Shown piece after piece: positions 5,754 to 42,673 of a stretch of DNA of 64,000 nt. This DNA comes from a virus (lineage: Duplodnaviria > Caudoviricetes). The notes under the pieces were generated by a model. It did no database searches, was not told the DNA's origin, and worked only from the letters and a program-made list of their open reading frames with translations. Where the stretch lies: the IMG/VR virus record IMGVR_UViG_3300010429_001449. One strand, given 5' to 3'. The translations under genes and the position numbers were made by a program. The first letter of the stretch is position 1. Each line of letters starts with the position of its first letter.

Positions 5754-6245
5754 TTACTCTTGGGGGGGAGCAGCCTCGCCGCAAATGTTGCTCAGTGCCT
5801 GCGCTTGAAGAATACGGCACTGATGTTCAATCTCATTAAGCTGAGCCAGAATGGGCTTGAGGTTCACTTCCGGAATTATTGCTCGGAAGCCCGGTTGCCG
5901 CGTCTGGCTACGAAGCATCTTCGTCTGTTTCTTCGCTTGGCGATATGCCTTGCGCAGATCGCCTTTCTTAACTTCAATGACTTTCAGAATCTGGTTCACC
6001 AACGAGAGCGACGCTTTCCGGCGGCACTCCATCGACAGCGACGCCAAATCAACCGCCTGGCCGTGTTCGGGGCAGGCGCGACCCTCCGTTGCGCCTAAGA
6101 AGAACCCACAGACAGGACATGCCCGGAACATGATGTCTTTAGGGCGATCACTGCCTAGAATCGTCATCGCAGACGCAAGCAGGTCGTCTTCCTTACGCGC
6201 TTCCTCATCAACGGGCGTCTCTGGCTTGGGGGTTTCATCCGGCAT
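5754..6245 (-). CDS. Hypothetical protein (Zn motif plus coiled coil)
   Basis: AGGAG RBS; CPVC..CPEH. Confidence 0.7.
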   Translation of the reverse strand: MPDETPKPETPVDEEARKEDDLLASAMTILGSDRPKDIMFRACPVCGFFLGATEGRACPEHGQAVDLASLSMECRRKASLSLVNQILKVIEVKKGDLRKAYRQAKKQTKMLRSQTRQPGFRAIIPEVNLKPILAQLNEIEHQCRILQAQALSNICGEAAPPQE

Positions 6246-6587: not shown

Positions 6588-8099
6588 TTAAAAAGGACAA
6601 TCGGCCTCGTCGAACTCCGTGTCCGCGTCGGCTATTGTCGCTGCTGGTTCCACAGAAAAGTCCGCTGACTGATCTCCGTCGTAAGAGACAAGAGTACCGA
6701 ACGGCGGACGATACGAACCAAACTTCAGCGCGGCATTACGATCCGTACGCTTCACAATCCACAGGAGGGGAAGCGGCGGCTCTTTCTTAGGGAACGTCCC
6801 CATCAAGTCTGTGAAGTAACAAATTCCCGCATACTGTCCGTAACCTTCCTTCGCCAATCGAGCAAAGGGCGGGCGGAAGTCCGTGCCGCCGCGCCCGCCC
6901 CACCTGTACGGAACTTCGTCGTGGGGGCTGAGAACTTGGTCATAGACTATGGCGGCATCACAGCCTATCAACCGAATCTTCGTGATGCCTTTGGACGTAA
7001 GAATACCTCTGGCCTCCGAGACGAACTCGCGTAGATGTTCGTCGGAAATGGAGCCGGACGTATCAATCATCACAATCAACTGCTTGCCTTCGTCGAAAAG
7101 ATCGGGCAGATAAACGCCGCGACTCCAAACGCCGTCGTGCAAAACAGGCATCAAACGACGGTCGGGAATGCCGAAGTCGTAGTCATCCCGGACGATTTCA
7201 GATACGAATGTTGTAAAGAATTGCTGCCACGGGATGACAGGATTCAACAAGTCCTTAATCAAAGACTCCATAGAGCCGGGACACCTTCCGTGTGCGGCGG
7301 CCAACTGAGCGGCGCGAACCAGTTTCTTTTGCCACGCCCTCTCCAACGACTCTTCAGTTTCCGGCGATCCATTCTTGTAGTCCGCGCCGGACGCCGCAGC
7401 GTCCGACTGGTCGTTCCCGCCTTCGCCAGGGGTCTGACTCTGCTCCCCGGCTTGATCATCACCGTCCTGCGAAGACCCGTCTGGAGCCTTTTGAGCCGCG
7501 TCTTGATCTTCGTCTTGATCCTCGTCACCGCTGTCCTTGCCAGCAGACGAATCGTCGGTATCGTCATCGTCAGGGCGATTGTCCTTCTCCGACGGCGTGC
7601 GGCCATGTTCTCTATCATTCTTCTTGAAATCGCCAGTACCGTCGCCGGGCGTTAAGTCTTGAAGCGGGCATCGTGGGTTATCCGGAAGGAGACTGAATAC
7701 GCGCTCGACGGTCATTCCGGCATACTGAGGATCACAAGGCCACGCGGCAGGAACAGAAAAACCAGCGCGGTCTTCCGACACCTTGTCCTCGGCCAACATC
7801 AGATTGACTACGTGATCACAAGCGACGTTCCACTTCTTGAGATCGCGCCCCATTCTACGGCGTCCGAAAACGTGCCTTAGCGCTACGTGCAGTACTTCGT
7901 GGGCCAAAAGGGTTTGACGCTCGGAATCGTTCAATTGCATCGCGTAGGCGGGGTTTACGGCCATTTCCTTAGCCGTTACGCCCGCCGTGGGAACCCGGTG
8001 GGTCAGACGGATGGGTAGGTCGGCCAAGAGATAGCCGTAAAAAGGCCGCGAGAGCAACAGACGTGTCCGCGCCCGCTTTATGGCCTCAGACAACCGCAT
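6588..8099 (-). CDS. Metallopeptidase-like (HExxH) plus vWA domain protein (DUF2201-like)
   Basis: LLAHEVLH zincin motif, acidic linker, IDTSGS MIDAS, GGGTDF-like and YFTD motifs. Confidence 0.88.
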   Translation of the reverse strand: MRLSEAIKRARTRLLLSRPFYGYLLADLPIRLTHRVPTAGVTAKEMAVNPAYAMQLNDSERQTLLAHEVLHVALRHVFGRRRMGRDLKKWNVACDHVVNLMLAEDKVSEDRAGFSVPAAWPCDPQYAGMTVERVFSLLPDNPRCPLQDLTPGDGTGDFKKNDREHGRTPSEKDNRPDDDDTDDSSAGKDSGDEDQDEDQDAAQKAPDGSSQDGDDQAGEQSQTPGEGGNDQSDAAASGADYKNGSPETEESLERAWQKKLVRAAQLAAAHGRCPGSMESLIKDLLNPVIPWQQFFTTFVSEIVRDDYDFGIPDRRLMPVLHDGVWSRGVYLPDLFDEGKQLIVMIDTSGSISDEHLREFVSEARGILTSKGITKIRLIGCDAAIVYDQVLSPHDEVPYRWGGRGGTDFRPPFARLAKEGYGQYAGICYFTDLMGTFPKKEPPLPLLWIVKRTDRNAALKFGSYRPPFGTLVSYDGDQSADFSVEPAATIADADTEFDEADCPF

Positions 8100-9402
8100 C
8101 CTCGTCCTCCTCAGCGTCAGTCAGGACTTTGTCGGTCGGCGAGAGGTACTGCTCGGAACGAACGAGAGCGCCGTACTTCTTCTCGAAGGCCAGATAATCG
8201 TCGTTGTCGTAAGCCAGCATCGCGCCCTGCGCACGAAAGAAGGGCATTACGAATATGTCGCAGATACCGCAGGCCGCTATCTCAGGGGAGCGATCCATAC
8301 GCTGCACAGCATACTTGCAGTAGTTGGCGAACGCGGAAATGATTTTTTCCCGCGCTGTCTGCCGACGTACCACGCTCGCCAACGCGCCTGCAAAAGCATA
8401 CGACACGTCGGCGCGTTTTGGCATTGGGATAGACATAAGGCCGTCCAAGATGACCGCTTCGGGATTGGGCATTTCGCTCATAACGTCGCAAAAGGCGGAA
8501 AACTGCGTTCCCGCGCCCGATCCGACAGAACCGTTTATGAGACTCAAAGCGGCATTAACGTCTCCATTCGTCAAGGAGAGCCAGTCTGACACCGTTTCCC
8601 AACTGCGCGGAGTACAAAAAGCTTTCTTGTGCTTCGCGGGATCAAACTGAAAAAGCAGTTCCGGTTTGAAGGTCAGGAACGATGCGATGCGAAAATCAAC
8701 ACCGATGCGAAGCGCCCACAGCTTCCAGTCTCTCAAAGACGGCATAAGTTCCAAGTGCGTGAAGCGGTTCGCCAAAGCACTGGACATAGGATTGACGATT
8801 GCGCGATCCGTCTCTCGGTTGCCGCTGGCGACGATATAACAGTCGTCGGGAAGATTGTATTCGCCGACATGACCATCCAATACCAATGAGTAAGCCGACG
8901 CCTGTACTGCATTCGGCGCGGCATTCAACTCGTCGAGATGAATGAGATATCCAGGCTTCGTCGGCAGAAAGGACGGATGCCACCATTCGGTCATCCGCGT
9001 AATCTCGTATAACGGCTCTCCAGCGGCATTCAACACAGGTTCGCCGCCTTTATACACAGCAAAGTTGCCCGTGTCATCCTTAACGTTCTTCCCGTCCGCG
9101 TCCAGAACGAACTCGCCGGGCAGCCGTACCAAGGGGGTCTTGCGTTCTTGCGCGACAGGAACGCCGCGAAGGTCAACAGGATTCAACAAGGACATGCGCA
9201 AGTCGATGAAGTTCAGCCGCTCCTCTTTTGCGATCTCGCGCATCAAAGCTGACTTCCCAATACCCGGCGGACCCCACAGATGTGTGGCCCGTCCGCCGCG
9301 CCGCAACTTGCGCGAACGAACGGCAATCTGCATAGAATACTTGACTTCTGCAAACGAAAGCGGCGCTAACTGCACGTCACCGGTACTTGCTGCGGCGGGC
9401 AT
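8086..9402 (-). CDS. AAA+ ATPase (MoxR-like), partner of the vWA protein
   Basis: GPPGIGKS Walker A, LIHLDE Walker B, ASGN, ALANRF. Confidence 0.9.
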   Translation of the reverse strand: MPAAASTGDVQLAPLSFAEVKYSMQIAVRSRKLRRGGRATHLWGPPGIGKSALMREIAKEERLNFIDLRMSLLNPVDLRGVPVAQERKTPLVRLPGEFVLDADGKNVKDDTGNFAVYKGGEPVLNAAGEPLYEITRMTEWWHPSFLPTKPGYLIHLDELNAAPNAVQASAYSLVLDGHVGEYNLPDDCYIVASGNRETDRAIVNPMSSALANRFTHLELMPSLRDWKLWALRIGVDFRIASFLTFKPELLFQFDPAKHKKAFCTPRSWETVSDWLSLTNGDVNAALSLINGSVGSGAGTQFSAFCDVMSEMPNPEAVILDGLMSIPMPKRADVSYAFAGALASVVRRQTAREKIISAFANYCKYAVQRMDRSPEIAACGICDIFVMPFFRAQGAMLAYDNDDYLAFEKKYGALVRSEQYLSPTDKVLTDAEEDEDAVV

Positions 9403-11918: not shown

Positions 11919-11954
11919 AAAAAGAATAGGGCCGAAAGATTCTTCCGGCCCTAT
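11919..11954 (-). terminator. Intrinsic terminator closing the Y-RNA operon
   Basis: ATAGGGCCG...CGGCCCTAT hairpin followed by TCTTTTT. Confidence 0.8.
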
Positions 11955-11968
11955 CTTGAGTAAGTGTC

Positions 11969-12037
11969 GGGTTGACGAGGGACGGTCAAGAGTGGTTCAT
12001 GGTTATCATTCATGTACTCCTGACCAGCATTCAACCC
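11969..12037 (-). ncRNA. Y-RNA-like unit Y1 (minimal, no tRNA module)
   Basis: GGGTTGAATGC...TACATG...CTCGTCAACCC. Confidence 0.8.
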
Positions 12038-12044
12038 AAAGAGA

Positions 12045-12169
12045 TTGGTTGACGAGGGGCGCACGAGAGATTAGCAGGATTCGCACCTGCAATTCCCCGA
12101 AGGGAAACTTGCTTGTTAGGCAAGCGCGTTTGCTTTTTCGCCATGTACTCCCGTACTGCATTCAACCAA
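12045..12169 (-). ncRNA. Y-RNA-like unit Y2 (D, anticodon AAC, long variable and T arms; Ro stem replaces the acceptor stem)
   Basis: GGTTGAATGC...TACATG; CTTGC-CTAACAA-GCAAG; GCAGG-TGCGAAT-CCTGC; CTCGTCAACC. Confidence 0.82.
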
Positions 12170-12179
12170 AAAGAGGCGA

Positions 12180-12382
12180 GAGGCCGACGAGGGATGCGGA
12201 GTCTAGTTTTCGCGCTCTGCCGCTGAGCTACCCGCCCGAAGAACCCCGCCAGAGGCCCCTACCAGTCGCACACTTGCGGCTGATGTTCGGCGTCCGTTGG
12301 GGAGGAATTGGTGGGCGGGGCAGGAGTCGAACCTGCGACCTCGGCTTCCAATTAGCATGTAAACCCCACTGCATTCGACCTC
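12180..12382 (-). ncRNA. Y-RNA-like unit Y3 (YrlA-type T-acceptor-D order, internal CCA, 71-nt linker)
   Basis: GGTCGAATGC; GCAGG-TTCGACT-CCTGC; CCCGCCC-A-CCA; GGGCGGG-TA-GCTC..GAGC; CTCGTCGGCC. Confidence 0.88.
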
Positions 12383-12404
12383 AAAAATTCGCGGAAAGAA
12401 AGCA

Positions 12405-12557
12405 CAGTCGACGAGGAAATGAGAGACTTGGTTTTTGCTACGCTCCCATAGTGGCGACCGCCGGATTTCCCCGACAGGTCGCCGTTGGTGGGAGCGGCTC
12501 TTTCGAGCATCTACAGATTTACGGTCTGTTGCATGTAATCCCTCTGGCATTCGACTG
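12405..12557 (-). ncRNA. Y-RNA-like unit Y4 (anticodon GTA arm, mini T arm, acceptor with internal CCA; Ro stem at the D arm)
   Basis: AGTCGAATGC; ACAGA-CCGTAAA-TCTGT; CGCTCCC-A-CCA...GGGAGCG; CTCGTCGACT. Confidence 0.8.
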
Positions 12558-12596
12558 AGTTCTCTCTTGCGGAGCCGTAGCCCCGCGAAAAGGATT

Positions 12597-12720
12597 TGGC
12601 TGACGAAGGTGAAGAAACTTTACCGCTTTCGCGGATGGCGGGAATCGCACCCGCAACGTTCTGTTTACGAGACAGATGCTCTGCTATTGAGCTACATGTA
12701 GTTCCTTCGGCATTCAGCCA
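12597..12720 (-). ncRNA. Y-RNA-like unit Y5 (D, anticodon CGT and T arms; Ro stem replaces the acceptor stem)
   Basis: GGCTGAATGC; TAGCTC-AATAGCA-GAGC; TCTGT-CTCGTAA-ACAGA; GCGGG-TGCGATT-CCCGC; TTCGTCAGCC. Confidence 0.85.
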
Positions 12721-12733
12721 AAAAGAGGAAAGA

Positions 12734-12871
12734 GACCGACGAGGGTTTTGCAAGTCGTATGTGTTTGACCGCCGCTCTACTACCTGAGCTACTCCCGGCT
12801 TGCGCCAGAGGGCAGGACTTGCACCTGCGACCAGCGGTTGCGATAACATGTAGACCTACAAGCATTCGGTC
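12734..12871 (-). ncRNA. Y-RNA-like unit Y6 (classical YrlA layout, acceptor stem closed by a GCAA loop)
   Basis: GACCGAATGC; GCAGG-TGCAAGT-CCTGC; CTCTGGC-GCAA-GCCGGGAG; GCTC..GAGC; CTCGTCGGTC. Confidence 0.88.
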
Positions 12872-12888
12872 CCCTTTGTTACAGAAGA

Positions 12889-13008
12889 AGGCTGACGAGG
12901 TATTTGAAGAGACAACTTCAAGCGCCGAAGCGCTTGTTGTAGGGGTCGAACCTACTATCGAGGCTTGCGCCTTGATGGTATCCATGTAGTCCCTTCGGCA
13001 TTCAGCCT
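12889..13008 (-). ncRNA. Y-RNA-like unit Y7 (T arm flanked by GCAA and TTCG hairpins)
   Basis: GGCTGAATGC...TACATG; GTAGG-TTCGACC-CCTAC; CTCGTCAGCC. Confidence 0.82.
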
Positions 13009-13017
13009 AAAGAGATC

Positions 13018-13142
13018 GGGCTGACGAGAAATGACCGCGACGTTCAGAGTATTAGTCTGTTGCCTAGCTATTAGGCTACGTTTCCTTTGGTGGAAATGAT
13101 GGGAGTTGCACCCATAATGTAGTCGCAATCGGCATTCAGCCC
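13018..13142 (-). ncRNA. Y-RNA-like unit Y8 (complete permuted tRNA: T, acceptor-CCA, D, anticodon AAT; Ro stem at the variable loop)
   Basis: GGGCTGAATGC; ATGGG-TGCAACT-CCCAT; CATTTCC-A-CCA-AA-GGAAACG; GCCT..AGGC; CAGA-CTAATAC-TCTG; CTCGTCAGCCC. Confidence 0.85.
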
Positions 13143-13152
13143 AAAGTTGTTA

Positions 13153-13292
13153 GCGGCTGGCCGGGATTCAGGGGACGAGCAATTCAGTTCTCGCCACGGG
13201 GTTTTGTACGTTCATTCATTAAACCCGCTGCTCCCTGTCCCAACGCGCTTCTAAGCTTTCGCTCGCCGCTACTTGCTCCACGCTGCAGCCGC
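13153..13292 (-). ncRNA. Putative structured RNA heading the Y-RNA operon
   Basis: Terminal GCGGCTG/CAGCCGC stem; no ORF; ends resemble the element at 52307-52410. Confidence 0.5.
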
Positions 13293-13304
13293 ATTCAATC
13301 TAGC

Positions 13305-13348: not shown

Positions 13349-13376
13349 AGTATAACAGAACCAAGGGGAATGTCAA
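13349..13376 (-). promoter_or_regulatory. Promoter of the Y-RNA operon
   Basis: TTGACA-N16-TATACT. Confidence 0.85.
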
Positions 13377-13531: not shown

Positions 13532-15304
13532 TTACTCGGACGCTTCTTCTGCTTCATCGGGCGCTGCGTCGCTTGCGCTCTTGCAAGCGGCGGCCAGATC
13601 GATGGCTTCGATCTCGCGCACCCACACGGATACGTCCTTCTCCGGCTTTGCCGTCGCCGTCTTCGTCTCCGTGCCCGGCTTTACGCCGTTGTTCAAGAAG
13701 TCGATGATGACCGACCATACAGCGTTGGACCATCCGCCGATGTTCAGAATATCGGCGTCGCCTTCCGGAGCCTGCGTACTGTCGTTGGCCGCAAGGTCCA
13801 AACAGACCATCCGTGCGCCTGGACAACGCGACCGCAGCGCATTGAACTGCGCCATGAGTTCCGTGCCGCCATTACGCACGGTACGTCCCCTAGAATCAAC
13901 CCACGACTCGTTGTCAGAAATGATGACAACGCGATTGATCTTCTGTTGCGCACGGTTGACCCGCGCCAGCGGAGCCGAAATGCACGTTCCGCCCCCACCG
14001 GCGTGTCGGATCGCATTAGTAAGCGTCAGAATCGAGTCCCTACGCTCCAACTTGACAGGAAGCACGTCGTTGGCGAACGGCATTACGGTCGATCCCATGT
14101 TCCTCTTGTAGAGGATGGCTGCCAGCAGCGAGGAAATGTCCGCGCACGTAGCCTTCGTCGTGGCCGAGCCACGGTAGCCGGTTACTGGCGCGTCCATCGA
14201 TCCCGACAGGTCTGGCGCAATCAGCAGAGCGCCGTCGATGCCGATCATGTTGCTCGTTGCGAGGTCCATCGCGTCGTGCAGTGCGTCCCGAATAGCTTCC
14301 GGAACTTCGGTGTGGACGAAATCGTAAGCCGTCTTGATCTCGTACGGGAAGGGCTTGACCCTTTCCTGAATCTCCTCCTTGTCCCGGAGCTTCTCCGCGA
14401 TGGCCTTGACAGCCTTCTCATTGCTGAACACGCCTTGACGCTTGTACGTATTCAGATTCTTGAGGGTCTGTCTCCAGCCGCCGCGCAGCGCAAGCTGCCG
14501 CCAATGCTCTTCCTTCAGAGGAAGCGACGACAGGAACTCCCAACGCACTCCCTTCGGAAGCGGGGCCGACTCACCCGCCAGCAATGCGGCCTTGAACGTC
14601 TCGTAGTCGCGGATGCACTTCGGCAGCTTGTCCCAGTCGGGAGCAAGCTCCGGGCGATTCGCGCAGAGCGCCTTGGCCTCACCGAGGGTGCGTGGGCACT
14701 TGCCGATCAAGTAGGCGAAGATAGCCCGTTCCTCTGCCGTGCGCGGCGTCGGGTGAACCATCTTGATTACGTCCGACAGGCTCACCGTGCCTTTGGCCGA
14801 TCCACCGACAGAGTCGCCGAAAAGCTGATCACCCGTGCGGCTCCGCAGCCAGTCACGAATGGCCTTCTTCGGAACCGCGCCAAGCGACTTCCGACCGACC
14901 GCACCGCTACGCATAATTTGCGTGAAGCCGAGCAGCATCTTGCCGTTCGTCACGACGCGACCGAAAGCGCGATTGAACCACGAACGACCGTCTGCGTCCC
15001 GCGAAGTCAGATGGGCAAGCAGGAGCGCCGGAGCGTCCTTCATTCCACCGTTTTCACGAGCGTACACAGCCGTCTTGGCAACGTATTCGGGCGTGTTGAC
15101 CGCAGCCAGGGCCAGCATCTTGGCCAGTTCGTTTTCTCCGCTCTGATAGAACGTTCCGCCCTCCGGAAGCGTTCCAGTCATGGCGAACTGGGCGAGCGCG
15201 TGCTTGTCCGTGAACTTGTAAGCCACTCCCCCTGCTTCGTTGACCGTGTTGGTCGGAGGAGCCGTACGACCTCTCTGCGTCTTAAAAAGCTTCTTCGCTG
15301 GCAT
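13532..15304 (-). CDS. rsr: Ro60/TROVE domain RNA-binding protein (Rsr orthologue)
   Basis: NEAGG.AY...HALAQ...TG...TFY; A.YAR..GGMKD.PALL; RSG.VGRKSLG; D.IKMVHP; vWA DLSGSM, GGGT, IISDNESW. Confidence 0.95.
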   Translation of the reverse strand: MPAKKLFKTQRGRTAPPTNTVNEAGGVAYKFTDKHALAQFAMTGTLPEGGTFYQSGENELAKMLALAAVNTPEYVAKTAVYARENGGMKDAPALLLAHLTSRDADGRSWFNRAFGRVVTNGKMLLGFTQIMRSGAVGRKSLGAVPKKAIRDWLRSRTGDQLFGDSVGGSAKGTVSLSDVIKMVHPTPRTAEERAIFAYLIGKCPRTLGEAKALCANRPELAPDWDKLPKCIRDYETFKAALLAGESAPLPKGVRWEFLSSLPLKEEHWRQLALRGGWRQTLKNLNTYKRQGVFSNEKAVKAIAEKLRDKEEIQERVKPFPYEIKTAYDFVHTEVPEAIRDALHDAMDLATSNMIGIDGALLIAPDLSGSMDAPVTGYRGSATTKATCADISSLLAAILYKRNMGSTVMPFANDVLPVKLERRDSILTLTNAIRHAGGGGTCISAPLARVNRAQQKINRVVIISDNESWVDSRGRTVRNGGTELMAQFNALRSRCPGARMVCLDLAANDSTQAPEGDADILNIGGWSNAVWSVIIDFLNNGVKPGTETKTATAKPEKDVSVWVREIEAIDLAAACKSASDAAPDEAEEASE

Positions 15305-35039: not shown

Positions 35040-35416
35040 TGGTGGACGCGGGGGGCATTGCAACCCCCGTCCAGAAATGGTTCCTTCTGCGCTTGCTACA
35101 TGTTTAGCTGGCCTATTGTGTCTCGCGCTAAGAACCCCGGCCAGCGGGGTTTCCTTCGCGCCATCTCTAAAGCTTTAGCCCTTACGCCCAAGAGAACTGA
35201 CGTAAGACCGATCCCGCTAGTTGACGCCTGCAAACAGACGCGGGCTTCCGCAAGCAGACGTGTTGCCTCTTGTTAGGCAGCAAGCCCAACCGCTTCGCGG
35301 CTGGGGAATTGCACGATGTTATCGGCACTTGTGTTTTGTCAGGCGTTTTACGAGATTCCTGGCGATCTCGACATGCAACACAGACATCTTCCATCCTGTC
35401 GATTCTTGTCGCGCCC
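35040..35416 (-). ncRNA. ssrA: tmRNA
   Basis: 5' GGGCGCG..TCGAC and 3' GAC-T arm-CGCGTCC-A-CCA with G3:U70; tag ORF 35326-35273 encodes ADNIVQFPSREAVGLAA. Confidence 0.93.
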
Positions 35417-37435: not shown

Positions 37436-37517
37436 TGGCCGACGAGGGTGTAGAGAGGTTTGTTTTGGCGCTCCCTTGCGGGGGCAGGTAACATGTACTC
37501 CCTACGGCATTCGGCCA
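37436..37517 (-). ncRNA. Y-RNA-like unit Y9 (minimal)
   Basis: GGCCGAATGC...TACATG...CTCGTCGGCC. Confidence 0.8.
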
Positions 37518-37970: not shown

Positions 37971-38045
37971 TGAGTCGACGAGGATCGCAAGAGACGTTTG
38001 GTAGTCCACAACGGGGCATGTAGTCCCTCGCTGGCATTCGACTCA
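37971..38045 (-). ncRNA. Y-RNA-like unit Y10 (minimal)
   Basis: GAGTCGAATGC...TACATG...CTCGTCGACTC. Confidence 0.8.
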
Positions 38046-41092: not shown

Positions 41093-42658
41093 TCAGGACG
41101 GAAAACCTCTGCTGACCCAATCGATAGCCTTCTTGGTGCGGGCCAACCGTTCTGCTTCTTGTCTAGCCAGGGCGAGAGCGTCGTCCCGCGAACGAATCGT
41201 TCCTTCTAGTTGCGCGTCCTGTACAGCCGTCAAGACCTCGCTGAATATTGGACTGGGCGAGAAGCCCATCGCAATAAGGTCGTGTCCGGTCAAGAGCGGT
41301 TTCGGCTTCACCTGTTCGGGAGGAAGCTCTTCTTTCTTGCGCCGGAGCCACTCGTAATCCGAAAGATCGCCGTTGCTTCCCACAGCATCGGCGCGATGAA
41401 GGGCCAGCAACCGGTCGAACAGAGGATGCGCCATAATGCGCTTGAGCTTGGACAACTTCATGTCCTTGGCGTACGTCGGCACTAAGTGATGCTCAACAAG
41501 CCACTGGATAGCCTCAACATCAGCGTTGCTGAGCCTCATCCTCTTGCCAATCTCTCCTATCATCTCGGCCCCGACATCCTCATGTCTGTGGAACGTGATC
41601 CGCTGTTTGGCGTCGTTGAAGGCTTGTGTCTTAGGCTTGCCCACGTCGTGAAGGAGAGTAGCCCACGTCAAGACCAGATCGCCTTTAGGTTCCAGCTTAT
41701 CCAGCATCAAAAGCGTGTGTTCCCATACCGTACCTTCGGGGTGGAAGTCTTCCGGCTGCTCAATACCCTTCGTGGCGGCCATCTCGGGAAGCACTTTATC
41801 CAAAAGGTTCAAACCGTCGAGCAGCCGGAGTGCTTGCCCCGGATGTTGCGTTTGAAGCATCTTCCCTAACTCGTCGGTTATACGCTCTTGGCTGATGCCC
41901 GTGATCTTGTCCGCGTTGCTCTTTATGGCGTCGGCAGTCTTCTTGTCCATCTCGAAGCCGAAACGCGCCGCAAAACGGACGGCGCGGAGCATACGGAGAT
42001 AATCCTCTGCAAATCGGTCATTAGGGTCGCCTACGGCGCGTAAGACGCCGTTTTCCAGGTCTTGTTGGCCTCCAACGTAGTCGATGACCTTCTTCTCTTT
42101 GGGGTCGAAAAACAAGGCGTTTATCGTGAAGTCGCGCCGCTCAGCGTCTTTTTCAGCGGTCGAGAAGCTCACTTCGTCCGGATGCCGTCCGTCCGCATAT
42201 CCGCTTTCAGTCCGGAAGGTTGCGATTTCAAACTCGTCATCTCCATCTCGAACCCTTGACACGCCGAAGGCTTCCCCCGCAAACTTGGATTCGGGCCATA
42301 TCTTGGAAACTTCGTCCGGCGTCGCGGAAGTTGCTATGTCTATGTCGTGACAGTCACGACCGAGAAGCATGTCTCGCACACAGCCGCCCGCAAAATAGGC
42401 TTCATGCCCGGCGTCCTTCAAACGCTCAACAATGTTCGTGGCGGCTTTGCCTTGCTGGGAATCGAGAACCGCCGCCCAAGCATCTTCTTTGATCTTCTTC
42501 TCGGGCTTCTTTTCTTCTTCTCCTTCAGCGGCTCCGGCGGCAGAAGTAAACTGCCCGGTTTCAGGGTCTTTGCATCTGCTGCCTGGTTTACCGGGAGCGA
42601 TTTGACACGGCTTGTCGTCGGCTTTCCTGAATGCTGTTTGTATCCAATCATAGGGCAT
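41093..42658 (-). CDS. cca: CCA-adding tRNA nucleotidyltransferase (class II) with HD domain and N-terminal extension
   Basis: AGGCVRD, DIDIAT, DAERRDFTINAL, RFAEDYLRMLRAVRF, HPEG.V..H, LLHDVGKP. Confidence 0.93.
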   Translation of the reverse strand: MPYDWIQTAFRKADDKPCQIAPGKPGSRCKDPETGQFTSAAGAAEGEEEKKPEKKIKEDAWAAVLDSQQGKAATNIVERLKDAGHEAYFAGGCVRDMLLGRDCHDIDIATSATPDEVSKIWPESKFAGEAFGVSRVRDGDDEFEIATFRTESGYADGRHPDEVSFSTAEKDAERRDFTINALFFDPKEKKVIDYVGGQQDLENGVLRAVGDPNDRFAEDYLRMLRAVRFAARFGFEMDKKTADAIKSNADKITGISQERITDELGKMLQTQHPGQALRLLDGLNLLDKVLPEMAATKGIEQPEDFHPEGTVWEHTLLMLDKLEPKGDLVLTWATLLHDVGKPKTQAFNDAKQRITFHRHEDVGAEMIGEIGKRMRLSNADVEAIQWLVEHHLVPTYAKDMKLSKLKRIMAHPLFDRLLALHRADAVGSNGDLSDYEWLRRKKEELPPEQVKPKPLLTGHDLIAMGFSPSPIFSEVLTAVQDAQLEGTIRSRDDALALARQEAERLARTKKAIDWVSRGFPS

Positions 42659-42673
42659 ACACAAACATCTCCA

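What the first reader, a model, noticed from the sequence alone, without database searches (positions are those of the whole stretch)
12180..13142. Internal acceptor-A-CCA in Y3, Y4 and Y8 suggests processing to two-piece, chargeable Y RNAs
Seen: CCCGCCC-A-CCA (CCA at 12309-12311), then a 71-nt linker, then GGGCGGG. CGCTCCC-A-CCA (12486-12488), then a hairpin linker, then GGGAGCG. CATTTCC-A-CCA (13088-13090), then AA, then GGAAACG. Established: permuted two-piece tmRNA genes use this layout, with the linker removed by RNase P and 3' trimming. Inference: these Y RNAs may mature to a free CCA end that can be aminoacylated or repaired by the phage CCA enzyme while tethered to Ro60.
Basis: partly seen in the sequence, partly recalled or inferred. 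Interest (0 to 1): 0.75.

Follow-up and report, generated by a model that had tools for sequence, protein, structure and literature searches.

The report
Phage Y RNAs with built-in CCA ends
Three of eight Ro60-associated Y RNAs in an uncultured jumbo phage carry a tRNA-style acceptor stem followed by an encoded A-CCA and a spacer, so they look like precursors that RNase P opens into two-piece, CCA-ended RNAs, as already shown for Mycobacterium smegmatis YrlA; nothing suggests they are charged with an amino acid.

Summary
On the minus strand, Y3, Y4 and Y8 each read: acceptor 3' strand, A, CCA, spacer (71 nt, 38-nt hairpin, AA), then the complementary acceptor 5' strand starting with G. They lie in an eight-unit Y RNA operon just downstream of a phage Ro60 gene.

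It is not chance. In 102 homologous permuted modules from other phage, bacterial and metagenome Ro60 loci, CCA sits exactly at positions 74-76 in 20, against 0-3 at any other offset.

M. smegmatis YrlA has a 7-bp acceptor stem, is cut by RNase P in vitro and in vivo, gains a CCA tail, and both halves stay bound to Rsr (Chen 2014). The processing idea is therefore plausible (about 0.55) but only a variant of known biology: the CCA is encoded and the excised linker can be long.

"Chargeable" is unsupported. There is no G3:U70, and no acceptor or discriminator identity is conserved across the CCA-bearing homologues. No expression data or close relatives exist.

The same stretch was also noted by this scan in an overlapping window.

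The parts
13532..15304 (-). Phage Ro60/Rsr homologue (590 aa), immediately upstream of the Y RNA operon
   Evidence: Pfam vWA_Ro60, E 5.7e-14. It is 34-45% identical to Ro60 of other jumbo phages and bacteria.
13349..13376 (-). Sigma-70-like promoter of the Y RNA operon (TTGACA, 16 nt, TATACT)
   Evidence: 11 of 12 consensus matches.
11925..11955 (-). Intrinsic terminator-like hairpin with a U tract, closing the eight-unit array
12182..12380 (-). Y3, a YrlA-type Y RNA. The Ro handle takes the place of the anticodon arm. Order along the RNA: T arm, acceptor 3' strand, A-CCA, linker, acceptor 5' strand, D arm.
   Evidence: Rfam YrlA 52.4 bits, E 1.7e-10, below the gathering score of 69. The fold contains the handle, T arm and 7-bp acceptor stem.
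12309..12319 (-). Y3 acceptor 3' strand CCCGCCC, then A73, then encoded CCA (CCA = 12309-12311)
12238..12308 (-). Y3 71-nt linker, the putative excised intervening sequence. Its ends are pyrimidine-rich and its middle is a weak hairpin.
   Evidence: Linker fold -28.7 kcal/mol, z = -1.7.
12214..12237 (-). Y3 acceptor 5' strand GGGCGGG (G+1 = 12237, the predicted RNase P site is 5' of it), then UA, then the D arm
12406..12556 (-). Y4, a Y RNA whose Ro handle replaces the D loop. It has an anticodon-like hairpin (12513-12529), a GAAA-capped mini T hairpin (12497-12508) and a 7-bp acceptor stem.
   Evidence: The minimum-energy fold gives this four-arm shape, z = -5.5. ARAGORN does not call the rotated form a tRNA.
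12486..12496 (-). Y4 acceptor 3' strand CGCUCCC, then A73, then CCA (12486-12488)
12448..12485 (-). Y4 38-nt linker: a stable hairpin followed by ACUAU just before G+1 (12447)
   Evidence: -23.7 kcal/mol, z = -4.9. CUAU|G also precedes +1 in the homologues L015 3837-3967 and L194 6604-6741.
13019..13141 (-). Y8, a complete tRNA body circularly permuted at the variable region, with the Ro handle in the position of the variable arm. The acceptor stem is closed by the loop ACCAAA.
   Evidence: The unconstrained fold shows T, acceptor, D and anticodon arms, z = -3.0. ARAGORN calls the rotated sequence tRNA-Ile(aat) with CCA.
13079..13098 (-). Y8 junction: CAUUUCC, A, CCA (13088-13090), AA, GGAAACG (G+1 = 13085). 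There is one C.A mismatch at pair 6:67.
41093..42664 (-). Phage class II CCA-adding enzyme (PolyA_pol head, RNA-binding domain and HD domain)
   Evidence: PF01743 E 1e-38, PF12627, PF01966.

Best explanation
Y3, Y4 and Y8 are 'open-acceptor' members of the YrlA class of Ro60-bound Y RNAs. Their tRNA-like module is built like a pre-tRNA junction: a 7-bp acceptor stem stacked on a T stem, discriminator A, encoded CCA, a spacer acting as both 3' trailer and 5' leader, and G at +1.

Inferred mechanism. The eight-unit operon transcript is cut into units. In these three units the host RNase P cleaves 5' of G+1. The spacer is then trimmed back to the encoded CCA, which the phage or host CCA-adding enzyme can maintain. 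The product is a nicked, two-piece Y RNA held together by the Ro handle and the acceptor stem. It has a tRNA-like protected 3' end and stays bound to the phage Ro60.

Shown here: the anatomy, the recurrence of this layout in homologues, and the presence of Ro60 and a CCA enzyme. Shown elsewhere: the same processing in M. smegmatis YrlA. Not shown: cleavage, trimming or Ro60 binding in this phage.
For: - Exact anatomy, with cloverleaf-like unconstrained folds.
- When opened at the acceptor and rotated, Y8 is called a tRNA with a CCA end, and Y3 a tRNA with an insertion.
- Precedent (PMC4201824): M. smegmatis YrlA with a 7-bp acceptor stem is cut by M1 RNA at the tRNA +1 site. In vivo it yields 82-nt and 65-nt halves that both co-precipitate with Rsr, and the 5' half ends in CCA. 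About 2 nt are lost, so even a small closing loop can be cleaved.
- Homologue survey: of 102 unique permuted modules inside Ro handles next to Ro60 genes, 20 have CCA at positions 74-76, against 0-3 at other offsets. 18 of the 20 stems pair 7 of 7. In the first 20 CCA-bearing modules found (a largely overlapping set), -1 is U in 11 and +1 is G in 15. Spacers run from 2 to 71 nt.
- The phage homologues L015 (two units), L180 and L194 match Rfam YrlA at E 1e-12 to 7e-7.
- Units without CCA in this same array are capped by GCAA or UUCG tetraloops, so there are two discrete classes.
- The modules are not recent copies of resident tRNAs (best 61-83% identity over the halves) yet keep an intact ACCA.
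Against: - There are no transcript or end-mapping data, the host is unknown, and no close relative exists for an orthologue-level conservation test (Ro60 at most 45% identical anywhere).
- Y8 has a mismatched stem and only a 2-nt spacer.
- Y4 lacks the T-loop/D-loop elbow that RNase P uses.
- Among near-orthologous Pyrinomonadaceae YrlAs the triplet reads CCA, CCA, CUG and CCG, so the constraint is not absolute.
- CCA-bearing Y RNAs occur in phages whose tRNA genes all encode CCA, whereas L168 has CCA-less tRNA genes and a CCA-less open stem. That fits shared processing, but it fits repeated borrowing from tRNA genes equally well.
- The published view is that most YrlAs stay closed (10.1101/312249).
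Confidence: 0.55

Rival explanations
1. The RNAs stay in one piece. The NCCA and spacer are a carry-over from the tRNA-gene ancestry of the module, for example tandem tRNA duplication or recombination with CCA-encoding tRNA genes. Alternatively the CCA is a loop element that mimics a tRNA end for a binding partner, without any cleavage.
For: - 44 of 45 ARAGORN tRNA calls in this phage record end in encoded CCA (one of the 45 is Y2 itself).
- Whether the Y RNA has CCA tracks whether the genome's tRNA genes encode it.
- CCA is not strictly kept among near-orthologues.
- S. Typhimurium YrlA and D. radiodurans Yrn1 are not cleaved (PMC4201824).
Against: - The modules have diverged from every resident tRNA, yet ACCA is intact.
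- The enrichment is position-specific across lineages whose Ro60 proteins are only about 40% identical, while the neighbouring spacers share neither sequence nor length.
- A 71-nt or 38-nt 'loop' is hard to explain as a closing loop.
- The only tested 7-bp-stem YrlA is cleaved.
Confidence: 0.3
2. After opening, the RNAs are aminoacylated and act in or on the translation system, in the way tmRNA does, or as charged decoys.
For: - A free N73-CCA on a 7-bp acceptor/T-arm helix is the minimal aminoacyl-tRNA synthetase substrate.
- Opened Y8 is a complete tRNA with an anticodon arm (AAU).
- Chen et al. raised aminoacylation as a possibility for M. smegmatis YrlA.
- One bacterial homologue (L213 6101-6235) does carry G3.U70 plus A73-CCA.
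Against: - Y3, Y4 and Y8 have G3:C70, G3:C70 and A3:U70, so the AlaRS identity used by tmRNA is absent.
- Y3 has no anticodon loop, and the Y4 loop lacks U33.
- Across the 20 NCCA homologues, discriminators (read from the listings) are A 7, G 8, C 3 and U 2, and the acceptor stems share nothing. No single synthetase identity is conserved.
Confidence: 0.07
3. Artefact: chance CCA, or tandem tRNA genes mis-read as Y RNAs.
For: Dimeric tRNAs can mimic the YrlA layout, a caveat noted in PMC4201824.
Against: - Each unit sits inside its own Ro handle (GAAUGC ... UACAU ... CUCGUC).
- The two acceptor strands are mutually complementary.
- ARAGORN calls no tRNA over Y3, Y4 or Y8, nor over any of the 20 NCCA homologues.
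- The chance probability is about 6e-7 in the window and about 1e-15 in the survey.
Confidence: 0.02

Closest known systems
Mycobacterium smegmatis YrlA (Chen et al. 2014, RNA 20:1715; PMC4201824)
   Same: A Ro60/Rsr-bound Y RNA with a permuted tRNA-like module and a 7-bp acceptor stem. RNase P opens it at +1, the 5' half ends in CCA, and both halves stay on Rsr.
   Different: In M. smegmatis the closing loop is small and CA is added after transcription. Here ACCA is encoded in the gene, the excised spacer can be 38-71 nt, three such units sit in one phage operon, and in two of them the Ro handle is grafted at the D loop (Y4) or the variable region (Y8) instead of the anticodon arm. Processing has not been tested here.
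Closed-loop YrlA (S. Typhimurium YrlA; Rfam RF02553; structure in Wang et al. 2018, bioRxiv 10.1101/312249) and mycobacteriophage Bxz1/ET08 YrlA
   Same: The same handle motif, the same order of T arm, acceptor and D arm, and a location next to the Ro60 gene. Y6 and Y7 of this array belong to this closed type.
   Different: Those have 6-bp or extended acceptor stems closed by a loop, have no CCA, and are not cut by RNase P. The Bxz1 unit (L362 3676-3752) has an extended hairpin and no CCA.
Circularly permuted two-piece tmRNA genes (alpha- and beta-proteobacteria, some cyanobacteria)
   Same: The gene order is T arm, acceptor 3' strand, CCA, intervening sequence, acceptor 5' strand. The intervening piece is removed, leaving two base-paired RNAs.
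   Different: There is no G3:U70, no tag reading frame and no pseudoknots. Rfam tmRNA_permuted scores only 17.8 bits against a gathering score of 47, E 0.5. The phage's real tmRNA is a standard one-piece gene at 35040-35416(-).
Circularly permuted tRNA genes of Cyanidioschyzon merolae and relatives (Soma et al. 2007)
   Same: The 3' half lies upstream of the 5' half, the acceptor end is closed by an intervening sequence, and it is opened by RNase P or RNase Z.
   Different: Those are circularised at a bulge-helix-bulge motif by the splicing endonuclease and ligase, and they become normal tRNAs. Here the ends stay in the Ro handle and no such machinery is known in bacteria.

Membership tests
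YrlA-class Y RNA (Rfam RF02553) | Encoded within about 4 kb of a Ro60/rsr gene | tested here: met
   Ro60 is at 13532-15304(-). The units lie 0.4-1.4 kb downstream on the same strand.
YrlA-class Y RNA (Rfam RF02553) | 5' and 3' ends pair into a handle carrying the GNCGAAN0-1G motif | tested here: met
   GGUCGAAUG (Y3), AGUCGAAUG (Y4) and GGCUGAAUG (Y8, with U in place of C) pair with CUCGUCRRCY at the 3' end. Ro60 binding itself was not tested.
YrlA-class Y RNA (Rfam RF02553) | Permuted tRNA-like domain in the order T arm, acceptor stem, D arm | tested here: met
   Met for Y3 and Y8. Y4 keeps the acceptor stem, but a GAAA mini-hairpin replaces the T loop and the handle replaces the D loop.
YrlA-class Y RNA (Rfam RF02553) | Score at or above the Rfam gathering threshold of 69 bits | tested here: not met
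   Y3 scores 52.4 bits (E 1.7e-10). Y4 and Y8 give no YrlA hit at E up to 5. These are divergent members by architecture, not by the curated cut-off.
RNase P-opened, CCA-ended YrlA (M. smegmatis type) | Seven-base-pair acceptor stem stacked on the T stem | tested here: met
   Y3 7 of 7 pairs plus a 5-bp T stem. Y4 7 of 7 plus a 4-bp stem. Y8 6 of 7 (C.A at 6:67) plus a 5-bp T stem.
RNase P-opened, CCA-ended YrlA (M. smegmatis type) | Cleavage at +1 by RNase P, with two halves retained on Ro60 | not testable with these tools
   Needs RNA end mapping or an in-vitro assay.
RNase P-opened, CCA-ended YrlA (M. smegmatis type) | 3' CCA on the 5' half | tested here: inconclusive
   ACCA is encoded at the right place in all three units, and a phage CCA-adding enzyme is present. 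The mature end is unknown.
Two-piece (permuted) tmRNA | G3:U70 alanine identity, a tag reading frame and pseudoknots | tested here: not met
   Pair 3:70 is G:C, G:C and A:U in the three units. Rfam tmRNA_permuted gives 17.8 bits, E 0.5.
Aminoacylatable tRNA-like RNA | A conserved synthetase identity set (acceptor pairs, discriminator, anticodon) | tested here: not met
   No identity element is shared among the 20 NCCA homologues, and Y3 has no anticodon loop.

The most novel reading that the evidence does not exclude
Once opened, these Ro60-tethered RNAs behave as real tRNA-like substrates. In particular Y8 is a complete tRNA (anticodon AAU, A73-CCA) whose variable arm is the Ro60 handle. The phage would then deliver Ro60 to synthetases, EF-Tu or ribosomes, or use charged or CCA-ended decoys against host nucleases that attack tRNA.
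Probability: 0.07. Interest if true: 0.85.

Novelty: new variant of a known kind. Interest (0 to 1): 0.45.

Why it matters
The role of the tRNA-like module of bacterial Y RNAs is still unknown, and the field has treated RNase P opening of YrlA as a peculiarity of M. smegmatis. Two results here widen that view. A jumbo phage encodes three pre-tRNA-like, CCA-bearing Y RNAs beside closed ones. About a fifth of the 7-bp-stem YrlA modules surveyed, from phages, Acidobacteriota, alpha-proteobacteria and others, carry CCA at exactly the tRNA position. Together these suggest that 'open', two-piece Y RNAs form a widespread subclass. That gives concrete constructs for testing what a CCA end does for a Ro60 particle: protection from exonucleases, recognition by tRNA enzymes, or something else. 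I did not find this encoded CCA mentioned in the two primary papers I could read. The 2020 Annual Review on bacterial Ro60 was not available to me.

Tried and rejected
- Nucleotide search of cultured phages with the array found nothing.
- Ro60-based searches of viral, genome and metagenome contigs and of cultured phages found no relative above 45% identity. An orthologue-level test (CCA kept while the linker drifts) was therefore impossible.
- An exact-pattern scan of viral contigs for the handle motif returned mostly chance hits. Only about 7 of 119 loci held real Y RNAs.
- I tried to fetch M. smegmatis YrlA by the paper's primer sequences and got no match. The paper's supplements and the 2020 review are not held.
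- A census of 7-bp hairpins in Y RNAs that ignored the T arm was swamped by handle stems, and I discarded it.
- Myxococcus phage Mx1, the closest cultured Ro60 phage at 39% identity, shows no YrlA near its Ro60 gene at E up to 0.01.
- The weak Rfam hits of Y3 to permuted and beta tmRNA are not significant.
- No RtcB is present in this 77%-complete record.
- Recent capture from a resident tRNA is rejected: best identity is 61-83%.

Full report
**Setting.** The window is part of a 268.8-kb uncultured jumbo-phage record, estimated 77% complete. Every feature discussed here is on the minus strand.
- A Ro60/Rsr homologue lies at 13532-15304 (Pfam vWA_Ro60).
- It is followed by a strong sigma-70-like promoter at 13376-13349 and, 1.4 kb further on, a terminator hairpin at 11955-11925.
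- Between them lie eight tandem units. Each is closed by the same handle: 5'-GGYYGAAUGC ... UACAU ... CUCGUCRRCC-3'.
- Rfam's YrlA model hits Y3 (52 bits, E 1.7e-10), Y6 and Y5 below its gathering score. Rfam's tRNA model hits the insides of Y2, Y5 and Y8.
- The units are therefore divergent YrlA-type Y RNAs with differing tRNA-like inner modules.

**The observation.**
- Y3 reads: T arm (GCAGG/UUCGACU/CCUGC), CCCGCCC, A, CCA (12309-12311), a 71-nt linker, GGGCGGG, UA, D arm.
- Y4 reads: a GAAA-capped 4-bp hairpin, CGCUCCC, A, CCA (12486-12488), a 38-nt linker that is a very stable hairpin (z = -4.9), GGGAGCG.
- Y8 reads: T arm, CAUUUCC, A, CCA (13088-13090), AA, GGAAACG, UA, D arm, anticodon arm.
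- Two caveats apply. The Y8 stem has a C.A mismatch. Y4 has no true T loop or D loop, because its handle sits where the D loop would be.
- The two other closed acceptor-like stems in the array are capped by GCAA (Y6) and UUCG (Y7), with no CCA.
- Unconstrained folding recovers the handle, T arm and acceptor stem in all three units.
- I opened each RNA at the acceptor, rotated it and truncated the handle. ARAGORN then calls Y8 a tRNA (anticodon AAU) with a CCA end, calls Y3 a tRNA with an insertion, and does not call Y4.

**Is it more than chance?** Within the array, ACCA directly after three of five such stems has a chance probability of about 6e-7.
- For an outside test I collected Ro60 loci from three sources: 72 from viral contigs, 80 from bacterial genomes and 80 from metagenomes.
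- I scanned them for modules with the order T arm, 7-nt strand, linker, complementary strand, U-N, D arm, lying inside a Ro handle.
- I then removed duplicates, units with atypical geometry, and anything ARAGORN calls a tRNA pair. This left 102 modules.
- CCA starts at linker offset 1, which is tRNA positions 74-76, in 20 of them. It starts at any other offset in 0-3. With a background of 0.018, P is about 1e-15 (one search gave 6e-17 on the first 86).
- The 20 have uniform YrlA geometry: about 43 nt from the handle to the T arm, and a core of 118-133 nt.
- 18 of the 20 stems pair 7 of 7. In the first 20 CCA-bearing modules found (a largely overlapping set), U is at -1 in 11 and G at +1 in 15.
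- Spacers range from 2 to 71 nt and are often U-rich or contain a hairpin.
- Phage examples are L015 (two units, G-CCA-AAAU|G and G-CCA-CUAU|G), L180 (G-CCA-AU|G) and L194 (A-CCA-CUAU|G). Rfam confirms these as YrlA-like at E 1e-12 to 7e-7.

**What is already known.** Chen et al. 2014 (PMC4201824) reported the following.
- M. smegmatis YrlA is the one YrlA they studied that has a 7-bp acceptor stem.
- E. coli M1 RNA cuts it at the tRNA +1 site.
- In vivo it exists mainly as an 82-nt 5' half and a 65-nt 3' half, and both co-precipitate with Rsr.
- The 5' half carries an added CA that completes a CCA tail.
- The authors discuss protection from exonucleases and possible aminoacylation.

Wang et al. 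2018 (10.1101/312249) restate this. They also compare YrlA with permuted tRNA genes, and they conclude that most YrlAs remain closed.

What differs here:
- The CCA is encoded in the gene.
- The piece to be removed can be long and structured.
- The units are phage-encoded and sit beside tetraloop-closed siblings.
- The handle is grafted at non-standard positions in Y4 and Y8.

The known phage YrlA type (mycobacteriophage Bxz1) has an extended closed acceptor hairpin without CCA.

**Function or fossil?**
- ARAGORN tRNAs in this phage record, one of which is Y2, and 44 of them end in encoded CCA.
- L180 and L194 also encode CCA in all their tRNA genes.
- L168 has tRNA genes without CCA, and its Y RNA has a 7-bp stem followed by ACAUGC.
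- The Y RNA junction therefore follows each genome's tRNA-gene style. That fits shared processing, but it also fits borrowing from tRNA genes.
- Against a recent fossil: the halves of Y3, Y4 and Y8 are only 61-83% identical to the best resident tRNA, which is generic tRNA similarity, yet ACCA is intact.
- Also against a fossil: the CCA recurs at one exact position in lineages whose spacers share nothing.
- For weaker constraint: four near-orthologous Pyrinomonadaceae units read CCA, CCA, CUG and CCG at that position. This is tolerable if a CCA-adding enzyme can rebuild the end, as in M. smegmatis.
- Encoded RCCA also directly aids bacterial RNase P through pairing with its P15 loop. That is established knowledge and was not tested here. 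It would give a reason to keep the CCA in a closed substrate.

**Chargeability.**
- Pair 3:70 is G:C in Y3, G:C in Y4 and A:U in Y8, so none has the G3:U70 alanine determinant that every tmRNA uses.
- Y3 has no anticodon loop, and the Y4 loop lacks U33.
- Across the 20 NCCA homologues, discriminators (read from the listings) are A 7, G 8, C 3 and U 2, and the acceptor stems are unrelated.
- A conserved charging function would be expected to leave a conserved identity set, and none is seen.
- One bacterial unit (L213 6101-6235) does combine G3.U70 with A73-CCA. I record it as a lead only.

**Supporting cast.** A class II CCA-adding enzyme with an HD domain is encoded at 41093-42664(-). No RtcB was found in the record.

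**Verdict.**
- Processing into two-piece, CCA-ended Y RNAs is the best-supported reading, at about 0.55. It is inferred from anatomy, comparative enrichment and an experimental precedent in another organism, not shown for this phage.
- A single-piece relic or mimic reading keeps about 0.3.
- Aminoacylation keeps about 0.07.
- This is a new variant of a known phenomenon. It adds the modest general point that encoded NCCA marks about a fifth of 7-bp-stem YrlA modules.

Noticed in passing
window 11964-13145 (-): The eight units attach the same Ro handle to a tRNA-like body at different points. Y2 and Y5 attach at the acceptor end (non-permuted; Rfam tRNA 39.5 and 50 bits). Y3 and Y6 attach at the anticodon arm, Y4 at the D loop and Y8 at the variable region. 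Y1 is a bare hairpin. All share a UACAU motif after the handle, and phage homologues have CUACAU.
   Followed up: partly
window 37973-38043 (-) and 37437-37516 (-): Two further short Y RNA-like units with the same GAAUGC ... UACAUG ... CUCGUC handle and no tRNA-like module. They lie among the tRNA-Pro and tRNA-Ser genes, 24 kb from Ro60.
   Followed up: no
window 13160-13304 (-): The first RNA after the operon promoter has UUGAAUGC and CUCGUC motifs but does not fold into the paired handle. It may be a degenerate ninth unit or a leader.
   Followed up: no
window T loops of Y2, Y5, Y6, Y8 (for example 13099-13115): These T loops read UGC instead of UUC at positions 54-56. They co-occur with D loops that lack the GG pair (AAUAGCU, AAUAGCA). 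Y3 has UUC and a GG-containing D loop. This may be a compensating change in the elbow.
   Followed up: no
L213 5724-6406 (Blastocatellia MAG contig JBDRAL010000083.1): A bacterial tandem array of three or more YrlAs, each with NCCA and a U-rich spacer. The unit at 6101-6235 has G3.U70 plus A73-CCA, the AlaRS identity set, and is the only such case seen.
   Followed up: partly
L015 3024-3967; L180 6904-7314; L022 7851-8654: Other jumbo phages also carry arrays of three to six Y RNAs beside Ro60, mixing CCA-bearing and tetraloop-closed units. Multi-Y operons seem common in this phage group.
   Followed up: partly
window 13532-15304 (-): The best bacterial relatives of the phage Ro60 (about 44% identity) are from Acidobacteriota (Pyrinomonadales/Blastocatellia) and Planctomycetota MAGs. 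This is a weak hint about the host.
   Followed up: no
window 6588-9402 (-): A pair of genes, a DUF2201 metallopeptidase/VWA-like protein and a MoxR-type AAA ATPase, lies a few kb downstream of the array.
   Followed up: no
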